Origin: Octopus vulgaris | Taxonomy: Eukaryota | DNA length: 64,000 nucleotides | Direction of reading: 5' to 3' | Assembly: GCA_951406725.2 (NCBI GenBank) | Contig: OX597841.1 | Location: forward strand, 2,294,001-2,358,000 | Part shown: in pieces, positions 7,878-57,590 of the stretch | How positions within the stretch are numbered: position 1 is the first letter of the stretch | Layout: every line of letters starts with the position of its first letter | Notes under the pieces: generated by a model | What the model was told of the DNA's origin: nothing | The model's database searches: none | The model's input: the letters and a program-made list of their open reading frames with translations, nothing else | Position numbers and translations under genes: made by a program

Positions 7878-9877
7878 ATTTCTAGCCATGGATGAGAGAT
7901 ATCTATGTGAGATTTGGCTGTTATTTCTAATAGTGGATGAGAGATGTTTATGGTTTGTGCGAGATTTGGCTGCTATTTCTAGTTGTGGATGAGAGATGTT
8001 TATGGTTTGTGCGAGATTTGGCTGCTATTTCTAGTTGTGGATGAGAGATGTTTATGGTTTGTGTGAGATTTGGCTGCTATTTCTAGTTGTGGATGAGAGA
8101 TGTTTATGGTTTGTGCGAGATTTGGCTGCTATTTCTAGTTGTGGATGAGAGATGTTTATGGTTTGTGCGAGATTTGGCTGCTATTTCTAGTTGTGGATGA
8201 GAGATGTTTATGGTTTGTGCGAGATTTGGCTGCTGCTATTTCTAGTTGTGGATGAGAGATGTTTATGGTTTGTGTGAGATTTGGCTGCTATTTCTAGTTG
8301 TGGATGAGAGATGTTTATGGTTTGTGTGAGATTTGGCTGCTATTTCTAGTTGTGGATGAGAGATGTTTATGGTTTGTGCGAGATTTGGCTGCTATTTCTA
8401 GTTGTGGATGAGAGATGTTTATGGTTTGTGTGAGATTTGGCTGCTATTTCTAGTTGTGGATGAGAGATGTTTATGGTTTGTGTGAGATTTGGCTGCTATT
8501 TCTAGTTGTGAATGAGAGATGTTTATGGTTTGTGCGAGATTTGGCTGCTATTTCTAGTTGTGGATGAGAGATGTTTATGGTTTGTGTGAGATTTAGCTGC
8601 TATTTCTAGTTGTGGATGAGAGATGTTTATGGTTTGTGTGAGATTTGGCTGCTATTTCTAGTTGTGGATGAGAGATGTTTATGGTTTGGTTTGTGTGAGA
8701 TTTGGCTGCTATTTCTAGTTGTGGATGAGAGATGTTTATGGTTTGTGCGAGATTTGGCTGCTATTTCTAGTTGTGGATGAGAGATGTTTATGGTTTGTGC
8801 GAGATTTGGCTGCTATTTCTAGTTGTGGATGAGAGATGTTTATGGTTTGTGCGAGATTTGGCTGCTATTTCTAGTTGTGAATGAGAGATGTTTATGGTTT
8901 GTGCGAGATTTGGCTGCTATTTCTAGTTGTGGATGAGAGATGTTTATGGTTTGTGTGAGATTTGACTGCTATTTCTAGTTGTGGATGAGAGATGTTTATG
9001 GTTTGTGTGAGATTTGCCTGCTATTTCTAGTTGTGGATGAGAGATGTTTATGGTTTGTGTGAGATTTGACTGCTATTTCTAGTTGTGGATGAGAGATGTT
9101 TATGGTTTGTGCGAGATTTGACTGCTATTTCTAGTTGTGGATGAGAGATGTTTATGGTTTGTGTGAGATTTGACTGCTATTTCTAGTTGTGGATGAGAGA
9201 TGTTTATGGTTTGTGTGAGATTTGACTGCTATTTCTAGTTGTGGATGAGAGATGTTTATGGTTTGTGTGAGATTTGGCTGCTATTTCTAGTTGTGGATGA
9301 GAGGTGTTTATGGTCTGTGCGAGATTTGGCTGCTATTTCTAGTTGTGGATGAGAGATGTTTATGGTTTGTGTGAGATTTGCCTGCTATTTCTAGTTGTGG
9401 ATGAGAGATGTTTATGGTTTGTGCGAGATTTGACTGCTATTTCTAGTTGTGGATGAGAGATGTTTATGGTTTGTGCGAGATTTGACTGCTATTTCTAGTT
9501 GTGGATGAGAGATGTTTATGGTTTGTGGAGATTTGACTGCTATTTCTAGTTGTGGATGAGAGTGGATGAGAGTTTAATGGTCTGTGCGAGATTTTGCTGC
9601 TATTTCTAGTTGTGGATGAGAGATGTTAATGGTCTGTGCGAGATTTGGCTGCTATTTCTAGTTGTGGATGAGAGATGTTTATGGTTTGTGCGAGATTTGG
9701 CTGCTATTTCTAGTTGTGGATGAGAGATGTTTATGGTTTGTGCGAGATTTGGCTGCTATTTCTAGTTGTGGATGAGAGATATTTATGGTTTGTGCGAGAT
9801 TTGACTGCTATTTCAAGTTGTGGATGAGAGATGTTTATGGTTTGTGCGAGATTTGGCTGTTATTTCTGGCCATGGAA
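7878..9877 (+). repeat. 52-bp tandem array (about 38 units) in ZF2 intron 1
   Basis: Unit TGTGGATGAGAGATGTTTATGGTTTGTGCGAGATTTGGCTGCTATTTCTAGT; period 52 (7981 to 8033). Confidence 0.95.
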
Positions 9878-10091
9878 GCTCCCTTCTATACTCTCCATCG
9901 TTGGCACGTTAGCTTGATGTGTGTTTTAGTTTGAGAAATATTCTGAAATACACTGCAACCACTGAAATGTGCAGAAACCAATACTTCATTATAATTTATG
10001 AAATTGCTGTTAGTGTGACTAGCAATTCGTTTCCCCATAACTTTTTGAAAATTTGATATTTTCTAATGAAATTTGTGACAAAAACGTTTCA

Positions 10092-10503
10092 GGCGTAGGA
10101 GTGGCTGTGTGGTAAGTAGCTTGCTAACCAACCACATGGTTCTGGGTTCAGTCCCACTGCGTGGCATCTTGGGCAAGTGTCTTCTGCTATAGCCCCGGGC
10201 CGACCAATGCCTTGTGAGTGGATTTGGTAGACAGAAACTGAAAGAAGCCTGTCGTATATATGTATATATATATATATATGTGTGTATGTTTGTGTGTCTG
10301 TGTTTGTCCTCTTAGCATTGCTTGACAACCGATGCTGGTGTGTTTACGTCCCCGTCACTTAGCGGTTCGGCAAAAGAGACCGATAGAATAAGTACTGGGC
10401 TTACAAAGAATAAGTCCCGGGGTCGATTTGCTCAACTAAATGCGGTGCTCCAGCATGGCCGCAGTCAAATGACTGAAACAAGTAAAAGAGTAAAGAGTAA
10501 GAG
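10092..10503 (+). mobile_element. SINE family A (CORE-like CTTGGGCAAGTG, internal (TA)/(TG) tract, (AAAGAGT)n tail)
   Basis: Full copy; at least seven more in the window. Confidence 0.85.
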
Positions 10504-11004
10504 TATATGATGTTGGTAACAATTATTTGGCAATTTGTTGTGAAAAATACAACTTAAGTAAGTGTATAAATAAATAACTTCAGCTTTGTTTCCTCATAGA
10601 TTTTAATAATGTAGATTACAACTATTTTGAAAATTTAATTACTTTTAAGATCTATTCCATAATTTACTTTCTGGAAAGAATTAAATGAATATTTTTTTTT
10701 AATGACGTGACACTTATGAGAGATATCAGTGTAAAGTTATCCATTGGTAATCTGATAATAGATTTCAAATTGGCCCTGGGGCAAGCCTACTTACCACACA
10801 GCCACCCTCCCCCCGTCCATCCTTTCTTGAAAATTGAAAATTGTAAGGTAGAGAGAGGTCCCTACATCGTAGGAGAAAAAAAAAAGTACCAGGAATGGGG
10901 ATGGGGAATAAAATTGTAAAAACATAAAATAATATGATTTCAGTTTTGGGAGATAGAATGATTTTTGGGTCGTAATTTCACAAGAATATTAACAGCGAAT
11001 AATA

Positions 11005-11145
11005 TTAGGTTGTCCCAAAAGTTCGTAAACACTTGCGAAAATTGAATTTTTACTCGCCAAGTACTAACAAGAACAACAAAAATTATTCCTCAAAATAAAG
11101 ACCATTATTTTCCAAGACTTTCTACGAACTTTTGGGACAACCTTA
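11005..11145. mobile_element. Mariner-like MITE
   Basis: TIRs TTAGGTTGTCCCAAAAGTTCGT / ACGAACTTTTGGGACAACCTTA flanked by TA. Confidence 0.75.
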
Positions 11146-11232
11146 TAATAAAAAATATCAGGATCTTTTCACTTTGACCGTCAGATTTTTAAGATAATTT
11201 CTTTGTAACTAAACACTTTTAAACTTCGTATA

Positions 11233-11574
11233 CTCTCTTTTTTTCTTTACTCTTTTTACTTGTTTCAGTCATTTGACAGTGGCCATGCTGGAGCACCGCC
11301 TTTAGTCGAGCAAATCGACCCCGGGACTTATTCTTTGTAAGCCCAGTACTTATTCTATCGGTCTCTTTTGCCGAACCGCTAAGTGACGGGGACGTAAACA
11401 CACCAACATTAGTTGTCAAGCAATGCTAGGGGGACAAACACAGACACAAACACACAAATCCTCTCACAAGGCATTGGTCAGCCCGGGGCTATAGCAGAAG
11501 ACACTTGCCCAAGATGCCACCCGGAACCATGTGGTTGGTTAGCAAGCTACTTACCACACAGCCACTCCTGCGCC
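11233..11574 (-). mobile_element. SINE family A inserted in a GGATCTTTTC-type MITE (about 11161-11730)
   Basis: Reverse complement of the 10092 copy; host element resumes at TACTGGTAG. Confidence 0.8.
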
Positions 11575-12253
11575 TACTGGTAGTGTGTTACATAAAACGT
11601 CTTTTTCTCTTGGCTTTCTTGAGAAAATTCTGTAGTTTGTAAGCTATTTGTTGTTTAATTTCTTGCATTTCAGCAATTTCAACCAATCAATGATGTCTAC
11701 TGAGGTGAATACAATTTCTGCCGGAAACATTTTCTGGCTGTGTCACATAATATATGATGTGAAAGTGTAGCTGTGGTTTACAAACATGTAAACTTCACAC
11801 AAGATTCTGTGATGTAAATTTTAATACATGGAAAAGTTCAGTTGTTCAGGTAAATGTTTGTAAGGTTTATCTCTATAAAAATGTTTTAAATTTTGCACTG
11901 TTGAATCTGTTTTGAAAGCAGCCACTATATCTTAAACTGTTGTTTCTTTATTTTTTCAGAATATCAGATGACATTGGCATAACAGATGATGCATTCTCAA
12001 TATTTATCATCTTTTGAAACACAAAGAAAATGATATACAAAGCAGATATACAACTCTTTCTGTAAATACGCTTTGCATTTCACTGATTAGATTACTGAGA
12101 AGATGAGTTTGTGTACTGAGTAGACTTGAATACATCCATGTAAGTGTTGCTAGAGAAAGGAAACAGTGGACAGAAATACAGAAGTGGGAGTATTTCTAAG
12201 ATTAAACAAGAAGAAAAACAAGGAAAGTATATTGTGATCTGAGAAAAATAATA

Positions 12254-14276
<2,023 letters not shown>

Positions 14277-15534: not shown

Positions 15535-15569
<35 letters not shown>

Positions 15570-23692: not shown

Positions 23693-24126
23693 AATTTTTC
23701 TTTTCAAATCTCTCTCTCTCTCACTATATATATATATTTTCTTACAGTTTATGCCTTGCCAATATTTCAATCACTGTATTTCTGTCCAGTGTTACCTTTG
23801 TCTCAGAACGTTTTTCTCAATTTATTCAAGTTTAATTTGCACACAAATTCATTTTGTAGACGATCCAGTCAGAAACGCATCGAAATTTTGGCAATAATCA
23901 CAGGTCATAGAGCATATATTGCACTGGAATGCTATCATAAGTTTACAGAAATGGTATTATACGTCTGCTTTCAATAGCATTTTCTTTGTCTTCAAAACAC
24001 GATAAATATTTTGAAATATCTTCAGTTACCCCAATGTCATTTGATATGTCCTGAAATAATAAAGAAACAACAGTGTAAGATGCAGAAGCTACTTAAAAAT
24101 TACAGATTCAACACATATATACATAT

Positions 24127-24350
24127 CTATTTCTTTACTACCCACAAGGGGTTAAACATAGAGGGGACAAACAAGGACAGACAAACGAATTACATCGACC
24201 CCAGTGCGTAACTGGTACTTAATTTATCGACCCCGAAAGGATGAAAGGCAAAGTCGACCTCGGCGGAATTTGAACTCAGAACGTAACGGCAGACGAAATA
24301 CGACTACGCATTTCGCCCGGCGTGCTAACGTTTCTGCCAGCTCGCCGCCT
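24127..24350 (-). mobile_element. SINE family C
   Basis: Homology to 6750-6977. Confidence 0.8.
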
Positions 24351-24401
24351 TATATACATATCATACACAAACTCAGCATGAGAGATATACATAAATAAAG
24401 A

Positions 24402-24442
<41 letters not shown>

Positions 24443-24659
24443 AAAGTTAAACAACATAGCTTATTTTAGCATTTTTGTAGACATTTACGGAGTCCAGTGC
24501 ACTGGTTCTGTGTGCTACCTTCTCTTTATACCAGAGGTCATTGTTCACATTGATATTCCACAACCTAAACCAAATCAATTGCTATCTATCATTAATTTCA
24601 CACTGTTGGTCCAGTGATTTTAGATATTAGCCCAGGAGGCTAAACCCAATTCACGAATT

Positions 24660-25075
24660 GGCAATCTTTCGTCTCTAGTAGACCTTTCCGTCGATTTCTG
24701 TAAAAAAAATTTTTTTTTTACATATGGGCTTGCGGGAACTTTTGAAGTAATGAGAGCGAAAGAGACTAAGAGAAAGCGATTGTATGACGAGGGAAGTTCT
24801 TTTGAAGTTACCGTCCAGGGGAAGCATTGATGTACATGTGTGTGTGTGTTTGATGGGGTGTGGGAGACATACAGTATGTTGTGTAAGTGAAGTGCTTCTG
24901 TTAGTGTGTGTGAAGAGACAGAGTAATGTGTGAAAGAAAGAGATAACTGAAATTTTTTACTCGGTGTATGTGTATATGTATGTATATTACTTCAAAAGTT
25001 CCCGCAAGCCCATATATATAAAAAAAAATTTTTACGGAAATCGACGGAAAGGTCTACTAGAGACGAAAGATCGCC
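24660..25075. mobile_element. MITE with ~90-bp TIRs and 8-bp TSD CACGAATT
   Basis: GGCAATCTTTCGTCTCTAGTAGACC... / ...GGTCTACTAGAGACGAAAGATCGCC; TSD at 24652-24659 and 25076-25083. Confidence 0.85.
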
Positions 25076-25429
25076 CACGAATTAAATATTTTGTACTACT
25101 CACCTCATATGACCACCAATACATTAACGAAACAATTGTCCTGAATGACGGTTTCCCTTCAAAGAAAGTGCCTGATCTAATTGGCAATCTCTTCCTACAC
25201 GGCCTTCTACATTACCAAATAATACCATCGCTAATTTTTTTTTATCTTTCGCCAAATATATTTCTAAGCCACATGAAGGGCAAATACGTTCCTTATGCAA
25301 GAGCCCATGTCGTCTGCACCAATCAATTGCATTAAATTAATAATCAAATCCGAACAATTTATGCTACTCACTGATGGGAAATTCATATAGAAATTGTAAA
25401 TGTTAACACTGAATATAAACAAAATGAAA

Positions 25430-25690
25430 CTAAATCACATTTAAGCTAAAAACGAAAGTAAATCATATTTAAGCGGTCACGCTTAAGCGAAACAAAGCAA
25501 AACAATATTTAAGGTAAAAACGAAAGTAAATCATATTTAAGCGGTCACGCTTAAGCGAAACAAAGCAAAACAATATTTAAGGTGAAAACGAAAGTAAATC
25601 ATATTTAAGCGGTCACGCTTAAGCGAAACGAAACAAAACAATATTTAAGGTAAAAACGAAAGTAAATCATATTTAAGCTTAAACGAAAAA
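25430..25690. repeat. 68-bp tandem repeat (about 3.5 units) containing hairpin TTAAGCG-GTCA-CGCTTAA
   Basis: AACGAAAGTA recurs at 25451, 25519, 25587, 25655. Confidence 0.9.
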
Positions 25691-25694
25691 TCGC

Positions 25695-25790
25695 CACCAA
25701 ATCTCGCACAAATCATAGACATCTCTCTTCTATAGCTAGAAATAGCAGCTAAATCTTGCACACATCATAAACATGTCTCACCCATAAAAG
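25695..25790 (-). repeat. One to two units of the 52-bp repeat in ZF3 intron 1
   Basis: CCAAATCTCGCACAAATCATAGACATCTCTCTTCTATAGCTAGAAATAGCAGC. Confidence 0.8.
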
Positions 25791-25872
25791 AGAAGCGAGA
25801 CAAAGAATCGCCACGTCAGAAACCGAACGTCTACAATATTTAAGATAAAAGATGTAATATTTTCATTGTTTA

Positions 25873-26260
25873 ATACTCACGGAAAAGTTTCGTAAAGGAT
25901 AACGTTCTTATAAGTGCGCTTGTGGTAGCTGAGAAATGTATTAAAAGTTAATGAGAGGTAATTCATCCCACCAGCAATTAAAGTAATGTCAACAGGGAAA
26001 CGGAAATATATCTAGTGCGCATGCGTGTGTTTTTACAAGACCCACGGCAGCGGATCTTTTCGGATTGAACAAGTCTTCATCCTCTGAAAGTATTATATAT
26101 GAAAGAATACGCATGCGCAATACTCGTACCTCCGTTTCTTGGCATCGGATGAGAAATGTCCTTCGCCTGAATTTCTCTTCTTCATCTTTTAATTCATTTC
26201 TCAACCAACATAAACACCGTTTATAGTAACACTGTCCACATCAAGCATTCACGTAAGTAT
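25873..26260. promoter_or_regulatory. Predicted bidirectional ZF3/ZF4 promoter with two NRF1-like palindromes (26016-26026, 26109-26119) and donors at 25880(-) and 26253(+)
   Basis: Left half homologous to the ZF8 promoter, right half to the ZF5/ZF6 promoters. Confidence 0.7.
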
Positions 26261-26479
26261 TCAACAACGAAAATATTCATTCTTTTATCTTCAATATATG
26301 AGACGTTCGGTTTCTGACATGTTCATTCTTTGTGTCTCTTCGGCTCAAGGCTATAGTAGAAGACACCTGCCCAGGGTGCTATGCAGTAGGACTGGACCTG
26401 GAACCATGTGGTTGGGAAGCAACCACACCTACACCAACATATGTATATATGCAACACTTATGTAGACATTCCTATGTAG

Positions 26480-27163
26480 ACATCGCCACAGATTGAGGAA
26501 GCAGGTTAAGGAGGGGATCGACACTTTTGAGAGAGCACGTATCCAGCATGAGTGGAGGCGCAATGGCCCAGTGGTTAGGGCAGCGGACTCGCGGTCATAG
26601 GATCGCGGTTTCGATTCCCAGACCGGGCGTTGTGAGTGTTTATTGAGCGAAAACACCTAAAAGCTCCACGAGGCTCCGGCAGGGGATGGTGGTGATCCCT
26701 GCTGTACTCTTTCACCACAACTTTCTCTCACTCTTCCTGTTTCTGTTGTACCTGTATTTCAAAGGACCGGCCTTGTCACTCTCTGTGTCACGCTGAATAT
26801 CCCCGAGAACTATGTTAAGGGTACACGTGTCTGTGGAGTGCTCAGCCACTTACACGTTAATTTCACGAGCAGGCTGTTCCGTTGATTCGGATCAACCGGA
26901 ACCCTCGTCGTCGTAACCGACGGAGTGCTTCCATCCATCCAGCATGAAGAACTTAAGCGAGCTGCACAAAAGCGCACGGATCGTATAGTGAATGGGGAAA
27001 GCTTGGTATGCAATGTTTGCAGTCGTGTATGCTTGTCAAGAGCAGGGCTCATTAGCCACCAAAGGAGCCGCAAATGCAAAACATAAGTTAGTCCTAGAGC
27101 GCACAATGTTCCTGAAGGTCGGCAATGGTCTTCCTCGGTGACGAGTGGACGGCCATCATCATC

Positions 27164-27165
<2 letters not shown>
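26480..27165 (+). mobile_element. 3' end of an RTE-like LINE (C-terminal CNVCSRVCLSRAGLISHQRS finger, (CAT)n tail) interrupted by a SINE
   Basis: Translation of 26991-27086; second copy at about 50380-50645. Confidence 0.65.
26554..26936 (+). mobile_element. SINE family B with TSD ATCCAGCATGA
   Basis: TSD at 26541-26551 and 26937-26947. Confidence 0.85.
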
Positions 27166-27202
<37 letters not shown>

Positions 27203-27411
27203 ATAAATATTAGGGAATAAATCCAAATTTACAGGGAAAAAATCAGATTTAGGATTAAATCCAATTTTATAGTAAAATATTATATAATATTAATATTATA
27301 TAATATAAATATTATATAATATTATATAGATTATATATATTTATATTTTTCATTGATAATTTTATTATTTTAAACTTATATTTTAATATATTGATATTTT
27401 AGATCGAAAAT

Positions 27412-27454
27412 CCACCTGACGAATGTCATTGAAGACATGAAACGATTGTAGTGG
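27412..27454 (+). ncRNA. Minimal type I hammerhead ribozyme motif in ZF4 intron 1
   Basis: CCAC-CTGACGA-ATGTC(attgaa)GACAT-GAAAC(gatt)GTA-GTGG: canonical core, stems I and II, short stem III, GUA triplet. Confidence 0.6.
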
Positions 27455-27538
27455 CGGTTTATTTCTTTATATTAAAAATTTTATGTATTGATTAAGTCTT
27501 TCCTTGTTTGTTTTGCAAAATAGTGGTTTTGTCTCGAA

Positions 27539-27587
<49 letters not shown>

Positions 27588-28095
27588 AGGTCTTGCAGAT
27601 AAATGGAGACCAATTTTAAGCAGTTGACTTGATGTGTTTAACTAAATCTTGCTTGCTTGAAAATCTAATCCTCATTTTCCTCTGTTGAATCTGTATTTTC
27701 AAAGTAGCCTCTATATCTTAGACTCTTGTTTCTTTATTATTTCAGAATATCAGATGACATCAGCAAAACAGAAGATATGTTCTCAACATTTATCATCTTT
27801 TTAAGACTGAAGGAAAAATTTTATACAGACCAGATATATAAGACTGGTAGATACCCTGAGAAATATTTGTTCAAAAAAAGCTGAGATTATTAGCAAAATT
27901 TCTGATCATCACTGATGGGAATGTCTACATAAGTGTTGCTATATAGTAAGGTGACAGTGGGTAGAAATACGGGAGTGGAAGTATTTGTACAGATAAAAGA
28001 TAACAAAAGCAAGAAGAATATATATACATTGTGATTTGGGAAGAAAAATAATAGAAAAGAGTGAGACACTTAAAGAATTGGTTTCCCATGAAGCC

Positions 28096-35134: not shown

Positions 35135-35286
35135 ACGCATGCGCAATACTCGTACCTCCGTTTCTTGGTATCGGATGAGAAATGTCCTTCGCCTGAATTT
35201 CTCTTCTTCATCTTTTAATTCATTTCTCAACCAACATAAACACCGTTTATAGTAACGCTGTCCATATCAAGCATTCACGTAAGTAT
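35135..35286 (+). promoter_or_regulatory. ZF5 predicted promoter (ACGCATGCGCA), exon 1 and donor at 35279
   Basis: Near-identical to the ZF4 and ZF6 promoter and exon 1. Confidence 0.65.
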
Positions 35287-35376
35287 TCAACAACGAAAAT
35301 ATTTAATCTTTTATCTTAAATATATGAGACGTTCGGTTTTTGACATGTTTGATTCTTTGTGTCTCTTCTGTCTTTT

Positions 35377-36122
35377 ATGGAAGAGAGATATTGAATTGTG
35401 CAAGATTTGGCTGCTATTTCTAGCTATGGAAGAGAGATGTCCAGGATTTATGCAAGATTTGGCTGCTATTTCTAGCTATGGAAGAGAAGTCGATGATTTA
35501 TGCAAGATTTGGCTGCTATTTCTAGCTATGGAAGACATGTCCAAGATTTATGCAAGATTTGGCTGCTATTTCTAGCTATGGAAGAGAGATGTCCATCATT
35601 TTTGCAAGATTTGGCTGCTATTTCTAGCTATGGAAGAGAGATGTCCATGATTTAAGCAAGATTTGGCTGCTATTTCTAGCTATGGAAGAGATATCCAGGA
35701 TTTATGAAGATTTGTGCAAGATTTGGTTGCAAGATTTGGCTGCTATTTCTAGCTATGGAAGAGAGATGTCCATGATTTGTGCGAGATTTGGCTGCTATTT
35801 CTAGCTATGGAAGAGAGATGTCCATGATTTATGCAAGATTTGGCTGCTATTTCTAGCTATGGAAGAGAGATGTCCATGATTTGGACGAGATTTGGCTGCT
35901 ATTTCTAGCTATGGAAGAGAGATCTCCATGATTTATGCAAGATTTGGCTGCTATTTCTAGCTATGGAAGAGAGATGTCCATGATTTGTACTGCAAGATTT
36001 GGCTGCTATTTCTAGCTATGGAAGAGAAGTCTCCATGATTTGTACGAGATTTGGCTGCTATTTCTAGCTATGGAAGAGAGATGTCCATGATTTGTACTAG
36101 ATTTGGCTGCTATTTCTAGCTA
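35377..36122 (+). repeat. 52-bp tandem array (about 14 units) in ZF5 intron 1
   Basis: Unit CTATGGAAGAGAGATGTCCATGATTTATGCAAGATTTGGCTGCTATTTCTAG. Confidence 0.95.
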
Positions 36123-36461
36123 TTTGTAAAAGCACTTATCCATGCTTGCTTGGCTCAGAATTCATAGAGGTAGAATTTTTATGGGCAGATGCCCTTCTTG
36201 TCACTAGTCCTCAAGCAAGGTAATATTTCACCATATCCTGACGTGTTTCCATGGAAGACTGGGATCACATGACATGTTGATGCTTATTTATATCTATCGC
36301 AGGATGTCAGACCAAGAACACACACACACATATGCAACATGAGTCTTCTTTCAGTTTACCGAATACACTCAGACGGCTTTGATTTCACTGATGCTATTGT
36401 ATGAGACACTGGCTGAAGGTACTGCACTGTGGGACTGAACCTGAAATCACTTTGCTCATGG

Positions 36462-36693
36462 GGTAAAATTACAGATTAACACCCGCATGATTTTCACTAA
36501 GAAAAAAAACAAAAAAAAATTCGGATTTTTTGCGTGGAATCAAGTACTCTGACCTCCTAATATGCTGCAAATCCTATATTTTGGTTCGGAATTGGTCCGG
36601 AATTTTCACACAAAAAAGAACTGATTTTTTGCGTGGAATCTTTTTTTTTTTTTATTAGTGAAAATCGTGTGGGTATTAATCTGTAATTTTACC
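36462..36693. mobile_element. MITE-like element with GGTAAAATTACAGATTAA TIRs
   Basis: ~40-bp imperfect TIRs. Confidence 0.65.
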
Positions 36694-37444
36694 AATTGTG
36701 ATCATAGCTCTCTGTGGCCTTAGATATTGAAAATCTAATCCTAGATATACAATGCTATTGAAAAAAACAGGATGTTCATGGATAGAATGTCTTTAACCAT
36801 ATGTATACTGGGCCACAACTGCTCTGCAGCTAAACAACGTCAGATTATATTTGTTAAGGGAGAAGATGGTTATTATTTGCTATTCTGCAGTTTAATCTAA
36901 ATAATATTACACAATGTGAAGGTGTAGCTGTTGTTTACAAATATGTAAGCTACACACAAGATTCTGTGATGTAAATTTTAATACATTAAAAAGTTCAGTT
37001 GTTCGGGTAAATGCTTATTTCTAAAGTTTATCTTTGTAGAAATGTTGTAAATTTTCCACTGTTGAATCTGTATTTTGAAAGCAGCTTCTTTATCTTACAC
37101 TGTTGTTTCTTTATTATTTCAGATGACATTGGTATAACAGAATATTCTCAATATTTATCATGTTGTGAAACTGAAAGAAAATTATGTACAAAGCAGATAA
37201 ATAACAGTGTTTCAATAAATCTGTTGCCGATTTCTGTGAAGTATTTGTTCTAATATCATTAACAAAAGTTCTGCACATCTGACTGGAGTGTTGAAGAGAT
37301 GAGTTTGTGTGCTGAGCAGACTTGGATAGATTTACTAGAGAAGGAAAACAGTGGAAAGTCCAACAGAAGTGGAAATATTTCTAAAATTAAACAAGGAAAT
37401 ATTTATATTTAATATATTTATATTGTGATTTGAGGAAAATAATA

Positions 37445-38330
<886 letters not shown>

Positions 38331-43463: not shown

Positions 43464-44070
43464 TATTATTTTTTTCTCAAATCACAATGTAGATATAAAT
43501 ATTAATATTTCCTTGTTTTTCTTCTTGTTTAATCTTAGAAATATTTCCACTTCTGTAGTTCTGTCCACTGTTTCCCTTCTCTAGTAAATCTATCCAAGTC
43601 TTATATAAATGTATCCAAGTCTGCTCAGCACACAAACTCATCTCCTCAACACTCCAGTCAGATGTGCAGAACTTTTGCTAATGATATTAGAACAAATACT
43701 TCACAGAAATCGATAACAGATTTATTGAAACACTGTTATTCATCTGCTTTGTACATAAGTTTCTTTCAGTTTGACAACATGATAAATATTGAGAATATTC
43801 TGTTATACCAATGTCATCTGAAATAATAAAGAAACAACAGTGTAAGATAAAGAAGTTGCTTTCAAAATACAGATTCAACAGTGGAAAATTTACAACATTT
43901 CTACAGAGATAAACTTAAGAAATAAGCATTTACCCGAACAACTGAACTTTTTAATGTATTAAAATTTACATCACAGAATCTTCTGTGTTGCTTACATATT
44001 TGTAAACAACAGCTACACCTTCGCATTGTGTAATATTATTTAGATTAAACAACAGAATAGCAAATAATAA

Positions 44071-44497
44071 CATCCATAGCTAGAAATAGCAGCCAAATCT
44101 CGCACAAAACAAAGACATCTCTCTCTTCCATAGCTAGAAATAGCAGCCAAATCTTGCACAAAACAAAGACATCTCTCTCTTCCATAGCTAGAAATAGCAG
44201 CCAAATCTTGCATAAATCCTGGACATCTCTCTTCCATAGCTAGAAATAGCAGCCAAATCTTGCATAAATCATGGACATCTCTCTTCCATAGCTAGAAATA
44301 GCAGCCAAATCTTGCATAAATCCTGGACATCTCTCTTCCATAGCTAGAAATAGCAGCCAAATCTTGCATAAATCCTGGACATCTCTCTTCCATAGCTAGA
44401 AATAGCAGCCAAATCTTGCATAAATCATCGACCTCTCTTCCATAGCTAGAAATAGCAGCCAAATCTTGCATAAATCATGGACATCTCTCTTCCATAA
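44071..44497 (-). repeat. 52/54-bp tandem array (about 8 units) in ZF6 intron 1
   Basis: CCATAGCTAGAAATAGCAGCCAAATCT repeated. Confidence 0.95.
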
Positions 44498-44584
44498 AAG
44501 ACAGAAGAGACACAAAGAATGAACATGTCAAAAACCGAACGTCTCATATATTTAAGATAAAAGATTGAATATTTTCGTTGTTGA

Positions 44585-44736
44585 ATACTTACGTGAATGC
44601 TTGATGTGGACAGCGTTACTATAAACGGTGTTTATGTTGGTTGAGAAATGAATTAAAAGACGAAGAAGAGAAATTCAGGCGAAGGACATTTCTCATCCGA
44701 TGCCAAGAAACGGAGGTACGAGTATTGCGCATGCGT
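44585..44736 (-). promoter_or_regulatory. ZF6 predicted promoter (palindrome at 44726-44736), exon 1 and donor at 44592
   Basis: Reverse complement of the ZF5 promoter. Confidence 0.65.
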
Positions 44737-45062
44737 ATTCTTTCATATATAATACTTTGAGGGGATAAGACTTGTTATCTCCCTTTACGTCTTGTGATTG
44801 AAAGTATTTCTCTGTATTTATTGCATCTGATTAAATGGTAAATTGGGGATCGATAGGGATTTTGGGAAATATCCAAATGTAATTTCTACTTTACTTCTTA
44901 TTTGAGAGGAGCATCGAAAAAGAAACATTTTGGCGGTCAAACTAAAGCTTTTGACCCTGTCATACAAAACAAAAAGATTCTTTTTATCTGGTGGAAATGT
45001 AGGGGCCTACTATCTCTAAATTAAAATATATTTCTTCATTGAGAATAATTATGCCGGAATTT

Positions 45063-45252
45063 GGATCTTTTCCTTTTGAACGGCAGTTTTCAACACAATT
45101 TCTAGTTAACCAAACACTTTTAAACTTTGTATACTGGTAGAATGTGTCAAAATGGCTTTCTTGAGAAAATTGTAATTTGTAAGTTTAACGTAGTTTAATT
45201 TTTCGAATTTTAACCAATCCTATTGCCTCTATTGAGCTAAAATCAAAGATCC
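45063..45252. mobile_element. GGATCTTT-type MITE with 8-bp TSD CGGAATTT
   Basis: TSD at 45055-45062 and 45253-45260; ends GGATCTTT / AAAGATCC. Confidence 0.75.
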
Positions 45253-45290
45253 CGGAATTTTTATTCCCTAAAAAAATAATATTTAAATAT

Positions 45291-45333
<43 letters not shown>

Positions 45334-45558
45334 GTGTGTGTGTGTGCGTGTAAATATATACTACTTATGCATGACTGTGTCTGTATATATATTCATGTCT
45401 ACATGTGTGCTTTTAATTTGCACAGTAAAGATGTCTTCTAGAAATTTAACCCAGAGATGCTATAATGAGACGCACTCAATACGGGCGACGTAAAGACCGA
45501 CATGAAACATCAAGGGAGGTAAACAGAGTGAACTAATGGAAACATCGAGTCCAAAAAC

Positions 45559-45690
45559 GCGCATGCGCACTATGCGTCCATCTCTTTCCATTTTAGCATC
45601 GAATTATTTATGTCCATTGCTTGAATTTATGAATACATTTATAATACTTTGTAAACAACACTATCCTTTATAAAACATTGCTGTAAGTAT
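45559..45690 (+). promoter_or_regulatory. ZF7 predicted promoter (GCGCATGCGCA), exon 1 and donor at 45683
   Basis: Motif and post-donor sequence match the ZF2-type first exon. Confidence 0.65.
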
Positions 45691-45789
45691 TAAACAAGGA
45701 AAATATTCAGTCTTTTTAATTCTGTAGACTTTCGATATTTGACGTCTCGATTCTTTGTGTTTTTTCTATCTTTTATGAATGAATGATTT

Positions 45790-46657
45790 CTATGATTTGG
45801 CTGCTATTTCTAGCTATGGAAGAGAGGTGTCTATAATTTGTGCGAGATTTGGCTGCTATTTCTAGCTATGGAAGAGAAGTGTCTATGATTTGTGCGAGAT
45901 TTGGCTGCTATTTCTAGCTATGGAAGAGAGGTGTCTATAATTTGTGCGAGATTTGGCTGCTATTTCTAGCTATGGAAGAGAAGTGTCTATGATTTGTGCG
46001 AGATTTGGCTGCTATTTCTAGCTATGGAAGAGAGGTGTCTATGATTTGTGCGAGATTTGGCTGCTATTTCTAGCTATGGAAGAGAAGTGTCTATGATTTG
46101 TGCGAGATTTGGCTGCTATTTCTAGCTATGGAAGAGAGGTGTCTATGATTTGTGCGAGATTTGGCTGCTATTTCTAGCTATGGAAGAGAGGTGTCTATGA
46201 GTTGTGCGAGATTTGGCTGCTATTTCTAGCTATGAAAGAGAGGTGTCTATGATTTGTGCGAGATTTGGCTGCTATTTCTAGCTATGGAAGAGCGGTGTCT
46301 ATGATTTGTGCGAGATTTGGCTGTTATTTCTAGCTATGAAAGAGAGGTGTCTATGATTTGTGCGAGATTTGTCTGCTATTTCTAGCTATGGAAGAGCGGT
46401 GTCTATGAGTTGTGCGAGATTTGGCTGCTATTTCTAGCTATGGAAGAGAGGTGTCTATGATTTGTGCGAGATTTGGCTGCTATTTCTAGCTATGGAAGAG
46501 CGGTGTCTATGATTTGTGCGAGATTTGGCTGCTATTTCTAGCTATGGAAGAGAGGTGTCTATGATTTGTGCGAGATTTAGCTGCTATTTCTAGCTATGGA
46601 AGATAGGTGTCTATGATTTGTGCGAGATTTGGCTGCTATTTCTAGCTATGGAAGAGT
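45790..46657 (+). repeat. 52/53-bp tandem array (about 16 units) in ZF7 intron 1
   Basis: Unit CTATGGAAGAGAGGTGTCTATGATTTGTGCGAGATTTGGCTGCTATTTCTAG. Confidence 0.95.
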
Positions 46658-47669
46658 GATGTCGTCAAAAAAAAAAAAATAGTGCAACGGGTGTTAAAAA
46701 ATGGGGAGCAGGAAACGAAAATGAAAGCAAAAATGCGTGGAAAGCAACGGCGGGATGGGGAGAGGACTTCGGAAAATTCACAAGATCCGAGTTTTTCCCT
46801 AATAACTTTTAGGAAAATGGTTTTATTTTTTTTAAATGAAATTTTATATAAATACCTTTCAAACGGCATACATTACGATTATAACGAAATTTATGGGTAA
46901 AATCTTTTCCTAGGGGTGGGGAGAGGACTTCGGTAGAATTTATCTCCTTTCATAAAAGGGGTTAATTTTGTATTTTCGTTTTATTATCATCATCATCATC
47001 ATTATTATTATTTTTGTATTATAAATTCAGAATTGATTTTCCAATTAAGGAATAAATTGTATCTCAATTGAAGAATAAATTGAATTTAGAATCACAAATT
47101 TCTATACAACATATTTTGCTTTTTTCTTCCAAAATATACAAAATTTCATTCGGGGACAACACCAGGTGTCTCTGCTAGTAAATTAAAGAGTTCAGTTGTG
47201 AGGTAGATGTTTATTTCTACAGTTCCTCTCTACAGACGTGTTGTAGATTTTCCACTGTTGAATCTGTACTTATAAAGTAACCTTTATATCTTTAACTGTT
47301 GTTTCTTTATTATTTCAGAATATCAGATGACATTTGGGATACCAAAAGATATATGCTCCTTATCTATCATCTTTTGAAGACTGAAGAAAAATGTTATACT
47401 GAAGAGATATATAACACTGTTTCTATAAATCTTTGGCAGAATTACTGTGAAATATTTCCTCTGAACTGTGATTATTAGCAAAATGTGTACTACACTGATT
47501 GTAGTGTCTACAAGATTAGATTGTGTAAACTAAACTTGAATAAATTTACAAGAGTTCTTAGATAAAGGTAACACTAGACAAAAATACAGCAGTATGTATA
47601 ATTGTAAAGAATAAAGTACAAGAACAAAAGCAAGAAATATATATGCATTGTGATTTGAGAAGGTAAATA

Positions 47670-51700: not shown

Positions 51701-52474
51701 ATATGCATTCATACAGCAGGTGAACACGCACACACTATCTATTTCTTTACTACCCACAAGGGGCTAAACATAGAGGGGACAAACAAGGACAGACATAGGT
51801 ATTAAGTCGATCATATCAACCCCAGTGCGTAACTAGTACTTATTTAATCGACCCCGAAAGGATGAAAGGCATATGAGCATTCGTACCCCTAGCAACATAT
51901 CCCAACCACACAATCCAAGAAACACAGCTTGAGATATGCATTTGATATCCCTCATATTTCAATACTATTATCAACAACACCATGTGACCTGCCTCGACCA
52001 ATAACATCCTAGTCTCCAGTAACCACTTTGGAATTCCTCTATCTCTGCATTTAATCATCTGAGCCTGACAAGCTAGGTTCCTATGATGAGCCTAAAAGAC
52101 TTCATGGGGCCAAATCAGACCCTTTTTAAATAAAAATAATAATAATCCTTTTTACTAAAGGCACAAGGCCTGAAACCTGGTGGGAGGGGACTAGTCAATT
52201 ACATTGACCCCAGTGCATAACTGGTACTTGATTTATTGACTAGAAAAGATAAAGGCAAAGTCAACCTCAGCAAAATTTGAACTCAGAACATGAAAACAAA
52301 CGAAATTCCACCAAGTATTTTAATCAGCATGCTAACGTGTCTGCCATCTTGCCGCCTAAATAATAATAATAATCCTTTCTGTTATTAGCATAAGACCTCG
52401 GGTTTTGGGGGAGGGAGCCAGTGCATAACTGTTACTTCATGGACCCCAAAAGGATGAAAGGCAAAGTCAACCTC

Positions 52475-55400
52475 GGTGGAATTTGAACTCAGAACATAAA
52501 AATGGATGAAATCCTACTGTTTTACCTGGTTTTTGATCTTAACTGATTGGAAGTGTTATCAATGTACGTAACTTTCAGAAAAATGTATATCTTACAAAGA
52601 TGAGATTTTTTAAAATTAAACTTTGGGGAGATAAGTTTTTGAGGACTTACATTATGATTATCTTCATAAAGATTTAGGAAAACATTTTTCTAGAGGAGTT
52701 TCCAATCTTTCTCAACCCCCACCTCAGTTTTGTTATCATCAATTTCCATAACTTTGGATTTTCACAATTTTTTAAAAATAATTGTGTGAAATAAAAACAC
52801 TATGTATTCTATACCTTTGCAAAGATTTTGCAGAAATTTCATTTAAAAATGTGATCAGTTTTAAAGAGAGCTATGAGGAAACAAAGTCATGGGTGGGGCA
52901 CTAAACTGTAGTTATGTCCAAAACAGAATTTACAAATAAATCAGTGATTACAAAATTAATTAAACTGAGATAATTACTGTCTTATGAATCTATTTGATAG
53001 ACAAAAATCAGCAAACCTTAAAAACATTGCAGACATTCAGGGATACCTCACATGTAGAATACTTTAAAAAACAATGAGGGAACCAGTGGTTAGTACGACT
53101 AATTAAACTGACTTAATTACAATTTCTCTGTTGTCCCCATATTTCCAGTCTTTCTAATTTTATCACACTGTCGTCTACCTCACAGTTCCAACACTATGTC
53201 CCCCTGGCTGGGACTTTGCACCAGCCACATATTTGGTCTATAGCCCCTCAGTAGATTGTTCCCTAGGAACTTCCAGTTGTCATATATGCTATACATCTCT
53301 ATCTCCTCCACCATCAAATGCTTCGACTAGAACATCTCATTTCTACAAAGACTCACAAGGAATAAATATATATATATATGGTGAACCATCCGATCGTGGC
53401 CGTTGCCAGCGCTGCCCTGACTGGCCTCCGGTGGCATGTAAAAAGCACCATCCAATTGTGGCCATTGCCAGCCTCACCTGGCCCCCGTGCCGGTGGCAAA
53501 TAAAAAGCACCATCCGACCATGAATATTTGCCAGCCCCGTCTGGCACGTAAAAAGCACCCACTACACTCACAGAGTGGTTGGCGTTAGGAAGGGCATCCA
53601 GCCGTAGAAACATTGCCAAATCAGACTGGGCCTGTTGCAGCCTTCTGGCTTCCCAGACCCCAGTTGAACCGTCCAACCCATGCTAGCATGGAAAGCGGAC
53701 GCTAAATGATGATGATGGATATTCTGAAAAAAATACATTCATGAGGAGTCACGATGAGTAAAACCTATATATTCACTCACTGGTTGTTGGTTGTCTATAT
53801 TTCACTTCTTTTTCTCAGTAACTGATGCTTAGGATCCCAGAAAATATTTTCTTATTTAACATTGAGAAAGCAAGAGATTGGTTTCAAAAAATAGTTTCAC
53901 ATAAAAATTCTTGTAACAAGGCGCAGGAGTGGCTGTGTGGTAAGTAGCTTGCTAACCAACCACATGGTTCCGGGTTCAGTCCCACTGCGTGGCATCTTGG
54001 GCAAGTGTCTTCTGCTATAGCCTTGGGCCGACCAATGCCTTGTGAGTGGATTTGGTAGACGGAAACTGAAAGAAGCCTGTCGTATATATGTGTGTATATT
54101 TATATATGTATGTGTGTAAATGTTTGTGTGTCTGTGTTTGTCCCTCTAGCATTGCTTGACAACCGATGCTGGTGTGTTTACATCCCCGTCACTTAGCGGT
54201 TCGGCAAAAGGAACCAATAGAATAAGTACTGGGCTTACAAAGAATAAGTCCCGGGATCGATTTGCTCGACTAAAGGCGGTGCTCCAGCATGGCTGCAGTC
54301 AAATGACTGAAACAAGTAAAAGAGTAAAGAGTAACATATTCAAAGTTTGGGAGAAATTACTTTTATTAAAAATATCACAGAGGTAAACTATCTCATCAAT
54401 AGAGATATAGCTGTAGAGATAAAAACTATAGTGTTGGTAGGTTGTTATAAAACTTCTTCCTTATATAAAAACATTTGCAGTTATAGATGTTTCCATTTTT
54501 GTTTTCCATAAAACAAATTTTTAAAGTAAACCATATTCTGGCATACAGTAAGAGGTAAGTAAAGGGGTTGGCATCAGTAAATGTCAAACCTAAAAAGTGG
54601 GTGATATATCTAGTGGATTAGTTACTTGTATAGCAAAATGCACAAGGTTACCCTTACATCAGATGATGCCTAAAATGTTTGTTATTGTTGTTATAAGTTT
54701 TGACATTGATATAGTTGCACTTACATATGTGTAGATGTATGTTTATGTAACTTATGACTTTCAGAGAAAGATTTACCACAAATGTCACAGTGATATGCCT
54801 TCTCTCCCGTATGAATACGTTTGTGTTTAGTTAAGTCACTACTTTTAGAGAATGATTTGCTACAGATATCACAGGCATATGGCTTTTCACCTGTATGGAT
54901 ACGTTTGTGAGAAATTAAGTTACTACTTGCAGAGAATGATTTACCACAGATATCACAGTGATGTGGCTTCTCTCCTGTATGAATACGTTTGTGAGAAGTC
55001 AAGTTACAACTTTGCGAGAATGATTTATCACAAATATCACAGTGAAATGGCTTTTCGCCTGAATGAATACGTTTATGTTTAGTAAAGTCGCCACTCCCAG
55101 AGAATGATTTACCACAAATATCACAGTGAAATGGCTTCTCTCCAGAATGATCACGTTTGTGTTTAGTAAAGTTACTACTTCCAGAGAATGATTTACCACA
55201 AATATTACAGTGAAATGGTTTCTCTCCTGTATGAATACGTATGTGTCTAGTTAATGTACCAAATTTGTAAAATGATTTACCACAGATATCACAGAGATAT
55301 TGCCTCTCCCCTGTATGAAAACTTTTGTGCTCAGCTAAGTAACTACTTACAGAGAATGATTTACCACAGACATCACAATGATATGGTTTTTCTGCTGTAT

Positions 55401-56020
55401 GAATACGCTTGTGTTTAGTTAACGTAGTACCATCAGAGAATGATTTACCACAGACATCACAGTGAAATGGCTTCTCTCCTGTATGAATATGTTTGTGTCT
55501 AGTTAAGTGACAACTAACAGAGAATGATTTACCACAGACATCACAGTGATATGGCTTCTCTGCTGTATGAATACGCTTGTGTTTAGTTAACGTACTACCA
55601 TCAGAGAATGATTTACCACAGACATCACAATAATATGGTTTCTCTCCTGAATGAATGCGTTTGTGAGAAGTCAATTGATAACTTCGAGAGAATGATTTAC
55701 CACAGATATCACAGTGATATGGCTTCTCTCCCGTATGAACACGTTTGTGTTTAGTTAAGACAGCACTTTGAGAGAATGATTTACCACAGATATCACAATG
55801 ATATGGCTTCTCCCCTGTATGAATGCGAATGTGCTTATTTAAGTCTATATTTTGAGAAAATGATTTGTCACAGATATGACACTGATATGGCTTCTCTCCT
55901 GTATGAATACGTATGTGTATTGTTAAGTTATTACTAACAGAGAAAGATTTACCACAGATAGCACAATGATATGGTTTCTCTCCTGAATGAAGACGTCTGT
56001 GTTTAGTTAAAGTACTACTA
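52475..56020. repeat. Direct segmental duplication, copy 1 (copy 2 at about 60495-64000)
   Basis: Near-identical sequence including both SINEs and the ZF 3' part; offset about 8.03 kb. Confidence 0.92.
53920..54332 (+). mobile_element. SINE family A (duplicated at 61955-62369)
   Basis: Homology; GTAACA flanking repeat. Confidence 0.85.
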
Positions 56021-56211
56021 ACAGTGAATGATTTACCACAGATATCACAATGATATGGCTTCTCTCCTGTATGAATACGTTGGTGTTTAGTCAAGTTATC
56101 TTTTAGAGAGAATGTCTTTTCACAGATATCACAGTCATAGGATAATTTACTTCTCTCTTTTATCATGTCTTCAGGTAAAATCAATTCGGTATGTTTCTCG
56201 CTTTTATCCAT
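54721..56211 (-). CDS. ZF8: C2H2 zinc-finger protein, about 17 fingers, 496 aa
   Basis: Intact ORF; ATG at 56211 (MDKSEKH); close paralog of ZF3. Confidence 0.92.
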
Positions 56212-57216
56212 AATTTTTCTTTTCAAATCAATATATAATAATAATAATGATGATGACGATAAATATATAAATATATATACGCAAACATATATTTTTTATT
56301 TTGTTCTTATAGGTTATACCTTGCCAATATTTCAATCACTGTATTTCTGTCCAATGTTACCTTTGTCTCAGAACTTTTTTCTCAATTTATCCAAGTTTAA
56401 TTTGCACACAAATTTGTTTTGTTGACACTGTAGTCAGAAATGCAAGGAACGTTTGATAATAATAACAGAGCATATATTGCACTGGAATGCCATAATAACT
56501 TTACAGAAATGGTATTATATATCTGCTTTCAATAGCATTTTCTTTGTCTTCAAAACACGATAAATATTGAGAATGTATCTTCACTTATCCCAACGTCATC
56601 TGATATTCTGAAATAATAAAGAAACAATCAGTGTAAGACACAGAAACTACTTAAAAATTACAGATTCAGTACATATACAAATACCAGCACGAGAGATATA
56701 CATATAGAGAGAAAGAGTGAGAGAGAATGTGGTAAATATATAGAAGGTGAAAGCTCGCAAAGAGAAAAGCATAAGAGACAGAGGTAGACAGATAAAGAGT
56801 TGTACGTAGATACATGCGACACACAATATTCCCTGTGATTGATCTGCATCACCTCATAACAAGACAGATGTGGGGAGCAGTTGTGTCGTTAAAATATATG
56901 AGGAAACAAAGTCGAAGACATAAAACATCTAACCCTTTCTCCCAACTATATTTTTTTCACAACAAATTCCAACATATTCGTAATCCACATTGTCTGAAAA
57001 GTATTTCTAGAAAATTTCATTACCAAAAATATCCATTTTTCACGAAGTTATGACGAATCAAATTGCTAGTTGAGTGAGCACACATCGGTAGTTATATCAA
57101 GAAACATTCGATAAATAATAATAATAAAGTATTGGTTTCTCAACATTTCAGCGGTTGGGGTGTATTTGAGAATATTTCTCAAACCACGACAAACACGGCA
57201 ACGATGGAGGGTGTAG

Positions 57217-57590
57217 CTTCCATGGCTAGAAATAGCAGCCAAATCTCGCACAAATAATAGACATCTCTCATCCATAGCTAGAAATAGCAGCCAGATATCG
57301 CACTAATCATAGACATTTCTCTTCCATAGCTAGAAATAGCAGCCAAATCTCGCACAAATAATAGACATCTCTCATCCATAGCTAGAAATAGCAGCCAGAT
57401 ATCGCACTAATCATAGACATTTCTCTTCCATAGCTAGAAATAGCAGCCAAATCTGGCACGAAACATAGTGATTTCTCTTCCATAACTAGAAATAGCAACC
57501 AGATCTCGCTCAAATCATAGATAACTCTCTTCCATAGCTAGAAATAGCAGCTAAATCTTGTACAATACATAGACATCTCTGATACATAAA
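57217..57590 (-). repeat. 52-bp tandem array (about 7 units) in ZF8 intron 1
   Basis: CCATAGCTAGAAATAGCAGCCA(A/G)AT repeated; alternating unit variants. Confidence 0.92.

What the first reader, a model, noticed from the sequence alone, without database searches (positions are those of the whole stretch)
7878..57590. Nearly every ZF gene carries its own sense-oriented 52-bp array just inside intron 1
Seen: arrays at 7878-9877 (ZF2, about 38 units), 25695-25790 (ZF3, 1-2), none in ZF4, 35377-36122 (ZF5, about 14), 44071-44497 (ZF6, about 8), 45790-46657 (ZF7, about 16) and 57217-57590 (ZF8, about 7). All begin within about 60-190 nt of the predicted exon-1 donor, flip with gene strand and occur nowhere else in the window. 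A 21-nt core AGATTTGGCTGCTATTTCTAG is almost invariant, while the other ~31 nt are homogenised within an array but differ between genes (TTGTGGATGAGAGATGTTTATGG in ZF2, CTATGGAAGAGAGATGTCCATGA in ZF5, CTATGGAAGAGAGGTGTCTATGA in ZF7). This implies independent amplification after gene duplication. Inference: a copy-number-tunable cis element or per-gene barcode for the family, for example a binding array for a regulator (possibly the ZF proteins themselves), a Pol II pausing or chromatin element, or a small-RNA target.
Basis: partly seen in the sequence, partly recalled or inferred. Interest (0 to 1): 0.8.

Follow-up and report, generated by a model that had tools for sequence, protein, structure and literature searches.

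The report
Conserved-core minisatellite in zinc-finger introns
In a cluster of zinc-finger genes, probably from an octopus, most genes carry an inherited 52-base repeat just inside their predicted first intron, and a 12-base piece of it has barely changed while the DNA around it drifted, so it likely serves as a repeated docking site for a regulator, possibly MEF2, though no binding has been tested.

Summary
The arrays are real: 84 core matches, all in six arrays, none expected by chance. They lie in 6 of 7 C2H2 genes whose 5' end is in the window, the first core 97-128 nt after the predicted donor. Position and strand are explained by descent: homologous flanks, and a 3' boundary shared by ZF2 and ZF8. 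The 'barcode' is weak: consensus units differ from the family consensus by only 0-5 of 52 nt. The unusual part is constraint. Between five gene lineages, flanks differ by 29%, units by 13%, and the 12-mer TGCTATTTCTAG by 0.5%; the period stays 52 bp. The 12-mer holds the reverse complement of CTAGAAATAG, the core of a reported MEF2A site, but misses the strict MEF2 consensus. Best reading: an inherited intron-1 minisatellite whose core is likely kept as a protein-binding site, possibly MEF2 (0.45). Main rival: a neutral repeat homogenised by gene conversion (0.35). Against necessity: ZF4 has no array, keeps an intact ORF and probably gives the one spliced-looking contig. No binding, expression or genome-wide test was possible.

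The parts
7783..9877 (+). ZF2 intron-1 array: one degenerate unit at 7783-7830, a ~47-nt interruption, then about 38 units; interior fixed for 5 ZF2-specific changes, edge units closer to the family form
25695..25790 (-). ZF3 intron-1 repeat: one intact core (25736-25756) with partial units on both sides
35376..36123 (+). ZF5 intron-1 array, 14 cores
44073..44496 (-). ZF6 intron-1 array, 8 cores, 55% of a 775-nt predicted intron
45793..46663 (+). ZF7 intron-1 array, 17 cores, 16 of 16 spacings exactly 52
57217..57588 (-). ZF8 intron-1 array, 7 cores, older and partly a 104-bp dimer; 3' flank homologous to that of ZF2
45854..45865 (+). Example of the near-invariant 12-mer TGCTATTTCTAG (unit positions 9-20), holding the MEF2-like 10-mer
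   Evidence: MEF2 likeness
7691..11959 (+). ZF2 predicted intron 1 (donor 7691, acceptor 11959); fingers in exon 2 from about 12254
   Evidence: prediction from motif homology
24051..25880 (-). ZF3 predicted intron 1; coding region frameshifted (ORFs 23270-23770 and 22618-23316)
26068..26341 (+). ZF4 promoter/exon 1/intron start: a 274-bp module 96-97% identical to ZF5/ZF6 that stops about 10 nt before the first partial unit; no array follows (a SINE-like piece does, label recalled)
26253..27745 (+). ZF4 predicted intron 1 without any core; ORF 27997-29307 intact (436 aa from stop to stop)
35279..37122 (+). ZF5 predicted intron 1; ORF stops early at 37930
43818..44592 (-). ZF6 predicted intron 1; a contig of a run guessed to be RNA stops matching exactly at 44593, the last exon-1 base
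45683..47318 (+). ZF7 predicted intron 1; head to head with ZF6
56608..57653 (-). ZF8 predicted intron 1; ORF 54721-56295 intact

Best explanation
This is a 52-bp minisatellite that sits at the same homologous spot of the predicted first intron in six zinc-finger paralogues, was likely inherited with each gene duplication and then re-expanded gene by gene, and whose 12-bp core is likely kept by selection as a repeated binding site for a DNA-binding regulator, possibly a MEF2-type dimer. Shown: the arrays, their homologous flanks, copy numbers of 0-38, and the much lower divergence of unit, core and period than of neighbouring non-coding DNA. Inferred: that selection rather than conversion keeps the core; that the bound factor is MEF2 (the near-palindromic 10-mer equals a reported MEF2A site core); that 52 bp, five helical turns at about 10.4 bp per turn, puts all sites on one face of the helix next to the promoter; and that copy number would then modulate, not switch on, expression, since ZF4 does without it.
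For: Descent: 5' flanks align in all genes and run into the first partial unit; ZF2 and ZF8 share the 3' boundary; the sister-like ZF3 and ZF8 share a variant in their first core. Constraint: mean mismatch over 10 pairs of 5 lineages (pairs not independent): flanks 0.289, whole unit 0.130 (lower than flanks in 10 of 10), positions 9-20 0.005, unrelated control 0.45; four-fold sites of the fingers between genes 0.24. Single random units are invariant at 69% of columns against 22-29% in flank alignments; the only comparable invariant run in the flanks is the 13-nt pyrimidine tract of the true acceptor. Period: 67 of 79 spacings are 52 and all consensus units are 52 nt although flanks carry 1.7 indels per 52 nt per pair (rough star-tree P 0.014). 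The 12-mer takes 4 of 61 distinct variants (post-hoc p 0.017, 0.033 when base class is kept); 80 of 85 units keep the 10-mer exactly, and 3 of the 4 variants are ones the recalled MEF2 consensus allows. In contigs of other runs none of the 19 listed variant places in the array falls in unit positions 1-20, but 12 of them only revert ZF6 to the family consensus and only 40 of 233 rows were shown. The reverse complement CTAGAAATAG is the core of a JASPAR-predicted MEF2A site in the IL8 promoter, relative score 0.945, in a paper that reports loss of binding on motif deletion (PMC13618858, passages and Table 1). A pattern relaxed to admit it occurs in 1.1% of 20,000 shuffled units. Octopus mef2 is expressed in brain (PMC9712504 passages), and cephalopod C2H2 paralogues fall in different expression modules (PMC12513265 section 14).
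Against: The core misses the strict recalled consensus YTA(A/T)4TAR by one base (0 strict sites in the arrays), and the relaxed pattern was chosen after seeing the core; with hundreds of known motifs some match is expected. Core conservation is not significant at the level of fixed differences (1 of 12, post-hoc p 0.23) and marginal for a 10-nt window (p 0.036-0.073). 17 of 85 units (odd length or terminal) were left out of these counts. ZF4 has no array and an intact ORF, and the only contig that marks the donor looks ZF4-like. Copy number shows no link to ORF integrity: ZF5 (14 cores) stops early, ZF3 (1) is frameshifted, ZF4 (0) is intact. In PMC9712504 the ZnF genes are enriched in precursors while mef2 is named for vertical-lobe cells, which does not fit simple activation. 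The non-core part is also more conserved than flanks in 9 of 10 pairs, as conversion would give. No binding, chromatin or expression data.
Confidence: 0.45

Rival explanations
1. A neutral minisatellite carried along by gene duplication, kept alike across paralogues by ectopic gene conversion between the many arrays; the quiet 12-mer is chance plus low mutability of an A/T-rich stretch.
For: Descent explains place and strand. The whole unit, not just the core, is under-diverged. 10 of 47 distinct variants are shared by two or more lineages. Paralogues do exchange modules: ZF4's 5' 274 bp is 96-97% like ZF5/ZF6 while its intron end and exon 2 are 67-73%. Copy number runs from 0 to 38 with no visible cost. 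Fixed-difference test not significant.
Against: Conversion should act on the whole unit, yet positions 9-20 differ by 0.5% against 11-18.5% for the rest; A/T sites in the 12-mer took 1 event in 8 sites against 23 in 23 elsewhere. The finger-coding 84-bp repeat, also open to conversion, is 24% diverged at four-fold sites. The quiet stretch coincides with a near-palindromic motif match.
Confidence: 0.35
2. An RNA-level element: each core ends in a pyrimidine stretch plus TAG followed by a purine-rich stretch and an ATG, so the array would be a row of decoy or alternative 3' splice sites, or splicing-factor sites, that tunes intron-1 splicing.
For: Always in sense orientation. The core resembles the true acceptor end (11 pyrimidines in the 19 upstream bases against 15). 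The invariant 12-mer ends at the AG.
Against: Sense orientation follows from descent. No joint from the donor into a unit is among the 15 of 35 joints shown, and depth in run X1 is zero at listed places behind several of the cores (inconclusive, since joints were hidden and the RNA label is a guess). No AG|GT ratchet and no good donor in the unit.
Confidence: 0.1
3. A target for the family's own zinc fingers or for a heterochromatin-nucleating protein: an autoregulatory or genome-stabilising array.
For: KRAB zinc fingers bind satellites, promoters and other KZNF genes (PMC10547256 passages); ZNF91 binds the SVA VNTR (PMC8015857 passages). Long finger arrays could read 12 bp or more.
Against: Recognition helices differ widely within and between these genes, so one invariant site is not an obvious shared target; a near-palindrome fits a dimer better than a finger array (inference). 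ZNF91 binding at KZNF promoters did not track expression. No KRAB or other effector domain among the Pfam families shown for 4 proteins (25 of 30-35 families shown each).
Confidence: 0.08
4. A source or target of small or structured RNA.
For: Contigs of runs guessed to be RNA do cover array sequence.
Against: No Rfam match in the window; folding no better than shuffles in 8 of 8 strands.
Confidence: 0.02

Closest known systems
[quoted passage not shown]
   Same: Minisatellite close to the start of the gene, variable copy number, candidate factor site in each unit.
   Different: Those are single-gene polymorphisms with tested effects; this is one repeat family shared by paralogues, with measurable constraint on a core and on the period, and no functional test.
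MEF2 response elements (IL8 promoter site of PMC13618858 Table 1; strict consensus recalled)
   Same: Identical 10-bp core on the opposite strand; near-palindromic; promoter-proximal.
   Different: One base off the strict consensus; up to 38 copies at a fixed 52-bp period; binding untested in this organism.
Repeats tied to vertebrate KRAB-ZNF clusters: SVA VNTR bound by ZNF91 (PMC8015857 passages); beta-satellite at 19p12 and the MSR1 minisatellite (both recalled, papers not seen)
   Same: A tandem repeat travelling with or regulating an expanding zinc-finger gene cluster.
   Different: Unrelated lineage and proteins with no KRAB among the families shown; the repeat is at a fixed homologous intron position rather than in a transposon or between genes.
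Octopus C2H2-ZNF clusters (PMC9068888, PMC12513265 passages; Albertin 2015 recalled, not held)
   Same: Tandem, KRAB-less multi-finger genes; the highest-identity named hit of ZF7 among 120 shown is an Octopus sinensis protein, 64% over 56% of the query.
   Different: The passages seen do not mention an intronic repeat. I recall Albertin 2015 reporting a 70-90-bp tandem repeat enriched at these genes; that is probably the 84-bp finger repeat, but I could not see the paper or its supplement.

Membership tests
Minisatellite / VNTR | Head-to-tail units longer than 10 bp | tested here: met
   Period 52, 84-95% matches; definition in PMC3899988
Minisatellite / VNTR | Copy number varies between homologous loci | tested here: met
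   0, 1, 7, 8, 14, 17, 38 among paralogues
Minisatellite / VNTR | Copy number polymorphic between individuals | not testable with these tools
   Only short contigs were available; none spans an array
MEF2 response element | Strict consensus YTA(A/T)4TAR (recalled) | tested here: not met
   0 strict sites in the arrays; one base off
MEF2 response element | Matches a reported MEF2-bound sequence | tested here: met
   10-bp core identical to the IL8 promoter site, JASPAR relative score 0.945 for that site with its own flanks; 80 of 85 units keep it
MEF2 response element | Bound by MEF2 and needed for MEF2-dependent expression | not testable with these tools
   No binding or expression assay
Known structured RNA / miRNA precursor | Rfam match or stable fold | tested here: not met
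Dispersed transposable element | Copies at unrelated sites in either orientation | tested here: inconclusive
   None outside the six arrays in 64 kb; no genome held; much more unit-like DNA exists in the runs than this window explains
CRISPR-like repeat-spacer array | Unique spacers between constant repeats | tested here: not met
   The 31-nt parts are near-identical copies
Recursive-splicing ratchet points | AG|GT junction | tested here: not met
   The AG of the core is followed by CT or TT

The most novel reading that the evidence does not exclude
The expanded octopus C2H2 family carries a built-in expression dial: an intron-1 array of MEF2 sites held exactly five helical turns apart, whose copy number (0-38 here) sets each paralogue's response to MEF2 and neuronal activity and can change far faster than the genes themselves.
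Probability: 0.2. Interest if true: 0.75.

Novelty: new variant of a known kind. Interest (0 to 1): 0.48.

Why it matters
Cephalopod C2H2 genes are one of the hallmark expansions of these genomes, and how near-identical paralogues come to be expressed differently is an open question (PMC12513265). A family-wide, promoter-proximal repeat with a constrained core and a natural series of 0 to 38 copies gives a direct test with existing genomes, ATAC-seq and single-cell data. If the neutral reading holds, it is still a clean marker of concerted evolution in the cluster.

Tried and rejected
No whole genome is held, so the genome-wide test could not be run. No listed holder of the stretch is on record as RNA; this is no evidence on expression. 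Summed contig depth on the array relative to exon 1 was 67 and 85 in the two runs guessed to be RNA against 1,212 and 1,387 in the other two, a drop like that of a neighbouring high-copy repeat; the tool warns that depth is neither copy number nor expression, so I use it only as a hint that many more units exist than the 85 here. Metagenome scans: 0 matches for a 33-mer and 2 single, non-tandem matches for the 21-mer, taken as chance. Rfam and folding negative. A 4-bp palindrome arm is common by chance (60% of 2,000 shuffles), so the palindrome alone is no evidence. The protein search was dominated by vertebrate fingers and does not fix the species. Earlier findings: none by sequence or place; the 8 by words concern other genomes and were not used. 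Ten paper searches found no description of this repeat; the library lacks most subscription papers, Albertin 2015 and the MSR1 paper were not held, and no supplements were read, where a repeat annotation could lie. The search for the 10-mer was swamped by papers with unrelated oligonucleotides; PMC4230783, PMC7987942 and PMC10547255 gave nothing relevant. Predicting targets of the fingers was not attempted beyond listing the helices.
Full report
Setting. The window holds nine tandem C2H2 zinc-finger genes (84-bp coding repeats; ORFs; zf-C2H2 in 4 of 4 proteins scanned). The highest-identity named hit of ZF7 among the 120 shown is an Octopus sinensis protein (64% over 56% of the query); the interspersed SINEs also look octopod to me (recalled). 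So the source is probably an octopus; the species is not fixed. Seven genes have their 5' end in the window. A shared donor motif and a shared acceptor motif give predicted introns of 775-4,269 nt in the 5' UTR, with all fingers in exon 2. One contig of a run guessed to be RNA (X1, record 3) matches 44593-44766 and leaves off exactly at the base before the predicted ZF6 donor with 29 further letters, which supports the donor.

Observation. Confirmed. The 21-mer occurs 84 times with up to 3 mismatches, all in six arrays and in gene-sense orientation, against 0 in 100 shuffles. The first core lies 97-128 nt into the intron. An HMM of the units finds no significant copy elsewhere in the window (best E 0.45). 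ZF4 has none.

Why there, and why that strand. Descent is enough. The intron starts of all seven genes align and run into the first partial unit; ZF2 and ZF8 share the sequence just after the last core; the edge units of ZF2 keep the family form while its interior is fixed for five private changes. The repeat therefore most likely arose once in an ancestral intron and was copied with the gene, then grew or shrank. Homogenisation is clear in ZF2 and ZF7, shared between the sisters ZF5 and ZF6, and absent in ZF8. A barcode is unlikely: ZF7 and ZF8 consensus units differ by one base. ZF4 is a chimera: 274 bp of promoter, exon 1 and intron start are 96-97% identical to ZF5/ZF6 and stop about 10 nt short of the first unit, while its intron end and exon 2 are only 67-73% alike.

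What is unusual. Across five lineages (ZF6 dropped as sister of ZF5; 68 of 85 units were full 52-mers and entered the counts, 64 without ZF6), flanking non-coding DNA differs by 29% and four-fold sites of the fingers by 24%, but units differ by 13%, their first nine bases by 11%, positions 21-51 by 18.5% and positions 9-20 by 0.5%. The period is 52 in 67 of 79 spacings and in every consensus, although flanks carry 1.7 indels per 52 nt per pair. The 12-mer takes 4 of 61 distinct variants; corrected for choosing the best window, p is 0.017-0.033, but only 0.036-0.073 for a 10-nt window and 0.23 for fixed differences alone. The evidence for a constrained core is therefore moderate. Contigs from other runs agree weakly: none of 19 listed variant places lies in positions 1-20, but 12 are reversions of ZF6 to the family consensus, 193 of 233 rows were hidden and alignment favours conserved seeds. 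Unit-like contigs were laid in all four runs, which carry three organism codes. One contig type, seen in two runs, joins diverged units to a homologous intron start through letters that I could not match by eye to any of the seven intron starts here, which suggests a further locus of the same build.

Mechanism. The quiet stretch contains CTATTTCTAG, exact in 80 of 85 units. Its reverse complement is the core of a JASPAR-predicted MEF2A site in the human IL8 promoter (relative score 0.945), and that paper reports loss of MEF2A binding and activation when the predicted motifs are deleted (PMC13618858, passages and Table 1). It is one base off the strict MEF2 consensus (recalled); a pattern relaxed after the fact to admit it occurs in 1.1% of shuffled units. 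52 bp is five helical turns, so sites would line up on one face (arithmetic, untested). I therefore commit to an inherited minisatellite whose core is kept as a binding site, MEF2 being the best-named candidate (0.45 for a selected protein site; about 0.2 for the full MEF2 dial). Octopus mef2 is expressed in vertical-lobe cells whereas ZnF genes are enriched in precursors (PMC9712504 passages), which does not fit simple activation.

Against necessity. ZF4 lacks the array and keeps an intact ORF. The donor-marking contig also stops matching at 44766, exactly where ZF4 has a one-base insertion relative to ZF6, and carries the non-ZF5 base at 44606; I infer that it is a spliced ZF4-type transcript, whose exon 2 would be too diverged to lay. 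Against this, ZF4 and ZF6 differ here at four sites in that stretch while the contig differs from ZF6 at two, the loose letters were not shown, and the RNA label is a guess. If right, the array modulates at most.

Rivals. Neutral inheritance with gene conversion among many arrays (0.35) explains place, strand, the under-diverged unit and shared variants (10 of 47) but not easily the 20- to 40-fold difference within the unit. A row of decoy 3' splice sites (0.10) fits the pyrimidine-TAG end of the core; no such joint was among those shown. Self-binding by the fingers (0.08) has vertebrate precedent (PMC10547256, PMC8015857 passages) but no support here. Structured or small RNA (0.02) is not supported.

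Comparison and novelty. It works like a promoter-proximal VNTR that changes the number of factor sites (PMC3899988 passages) and is a minisatellite by definition; it is not filed as a MEF2 element, since the strict consensus is not met and binding is untested. Ten searches and passages of PMC9068888 and PMC12513265 showed no description of this repeat; the 2015 octopus genome paper was not held and no supplements were seen. Verdict: real, partly ordinary, with a measurable constraint and a testable candidate regulator. New variant of a known kind; interest 0.48.

Noticed in passing
window 26016-26026, 26109, 35135, 44726-44736, 45559, 57799: A GCGCATGCGC-type palindrome (NRF1-like, label recalled) lies about 125-145 nt upstream of the donor in six of seven genes, with TTCCG (ETS-like, recalled) words beside it; ZF2 has only the latter. 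Probably the family's core promoter.
   Followed up: partly
window 25880-26341 and 44592-45683: ZF3/ZF4 and ZF6/ZF7 are head-to-head pairs; the ZF3 and ZF4 donors are only 373 nt apart, so ZF4 could share the single ZF3 unit.
   Followed up: no
window 52467-55962 and 60488-64000: ZF8 and ZF9 lie in a 3.5-kb duplication 98.9% identical: very recent duplication or an uncollapsed haplotype.
   Followed up: partly
window 43818 and homologous acceptors: Two AG acceptors 8 nt apart in most genes (one lost in ZF5/ZF6), followed by a conserved upstream ATG at the start of exon 2: possible uORF control.
   Followed up: no
window 12254-12325, 47669-47745, 23620-23695: A short shared N-terminal peptide precedes the first finger in most genes; no Pfam family shown covers it. 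Candidate lineage-specific effector motif.
   Followed up: no
window 12254-12264 against the unit: The unit shares 11 nt with the start-codon context of ZF2 and would encode a 6-codon upstream ORF if included in an exon; probably chance.
   Followed up: no
window 45060-45220: A very high-copy repeat end (depth over 10,000 times exon 1 in two runs); several contigs join a core to it, flagged by the tool as unreliable joints.
   Followed up: no
window 44080-44100 (+ strand): The antisense strand of the core shares about 14 nt with the common Cas9 guide scaffold hairpin (recalled); coincidence, it explains the noise in paper search.
   Followed up: no
window 57865-58537: An (ATA)224 microsatellite directly upstream of the ZF8 promoter.
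   Followed up: no
window 25439-25678: A separate 68-bp tandem repeat (3.5 copies, 97%) directly follows the single ZF3 unit: a second amplification at the same spot of intron 1.
   Followed up: no
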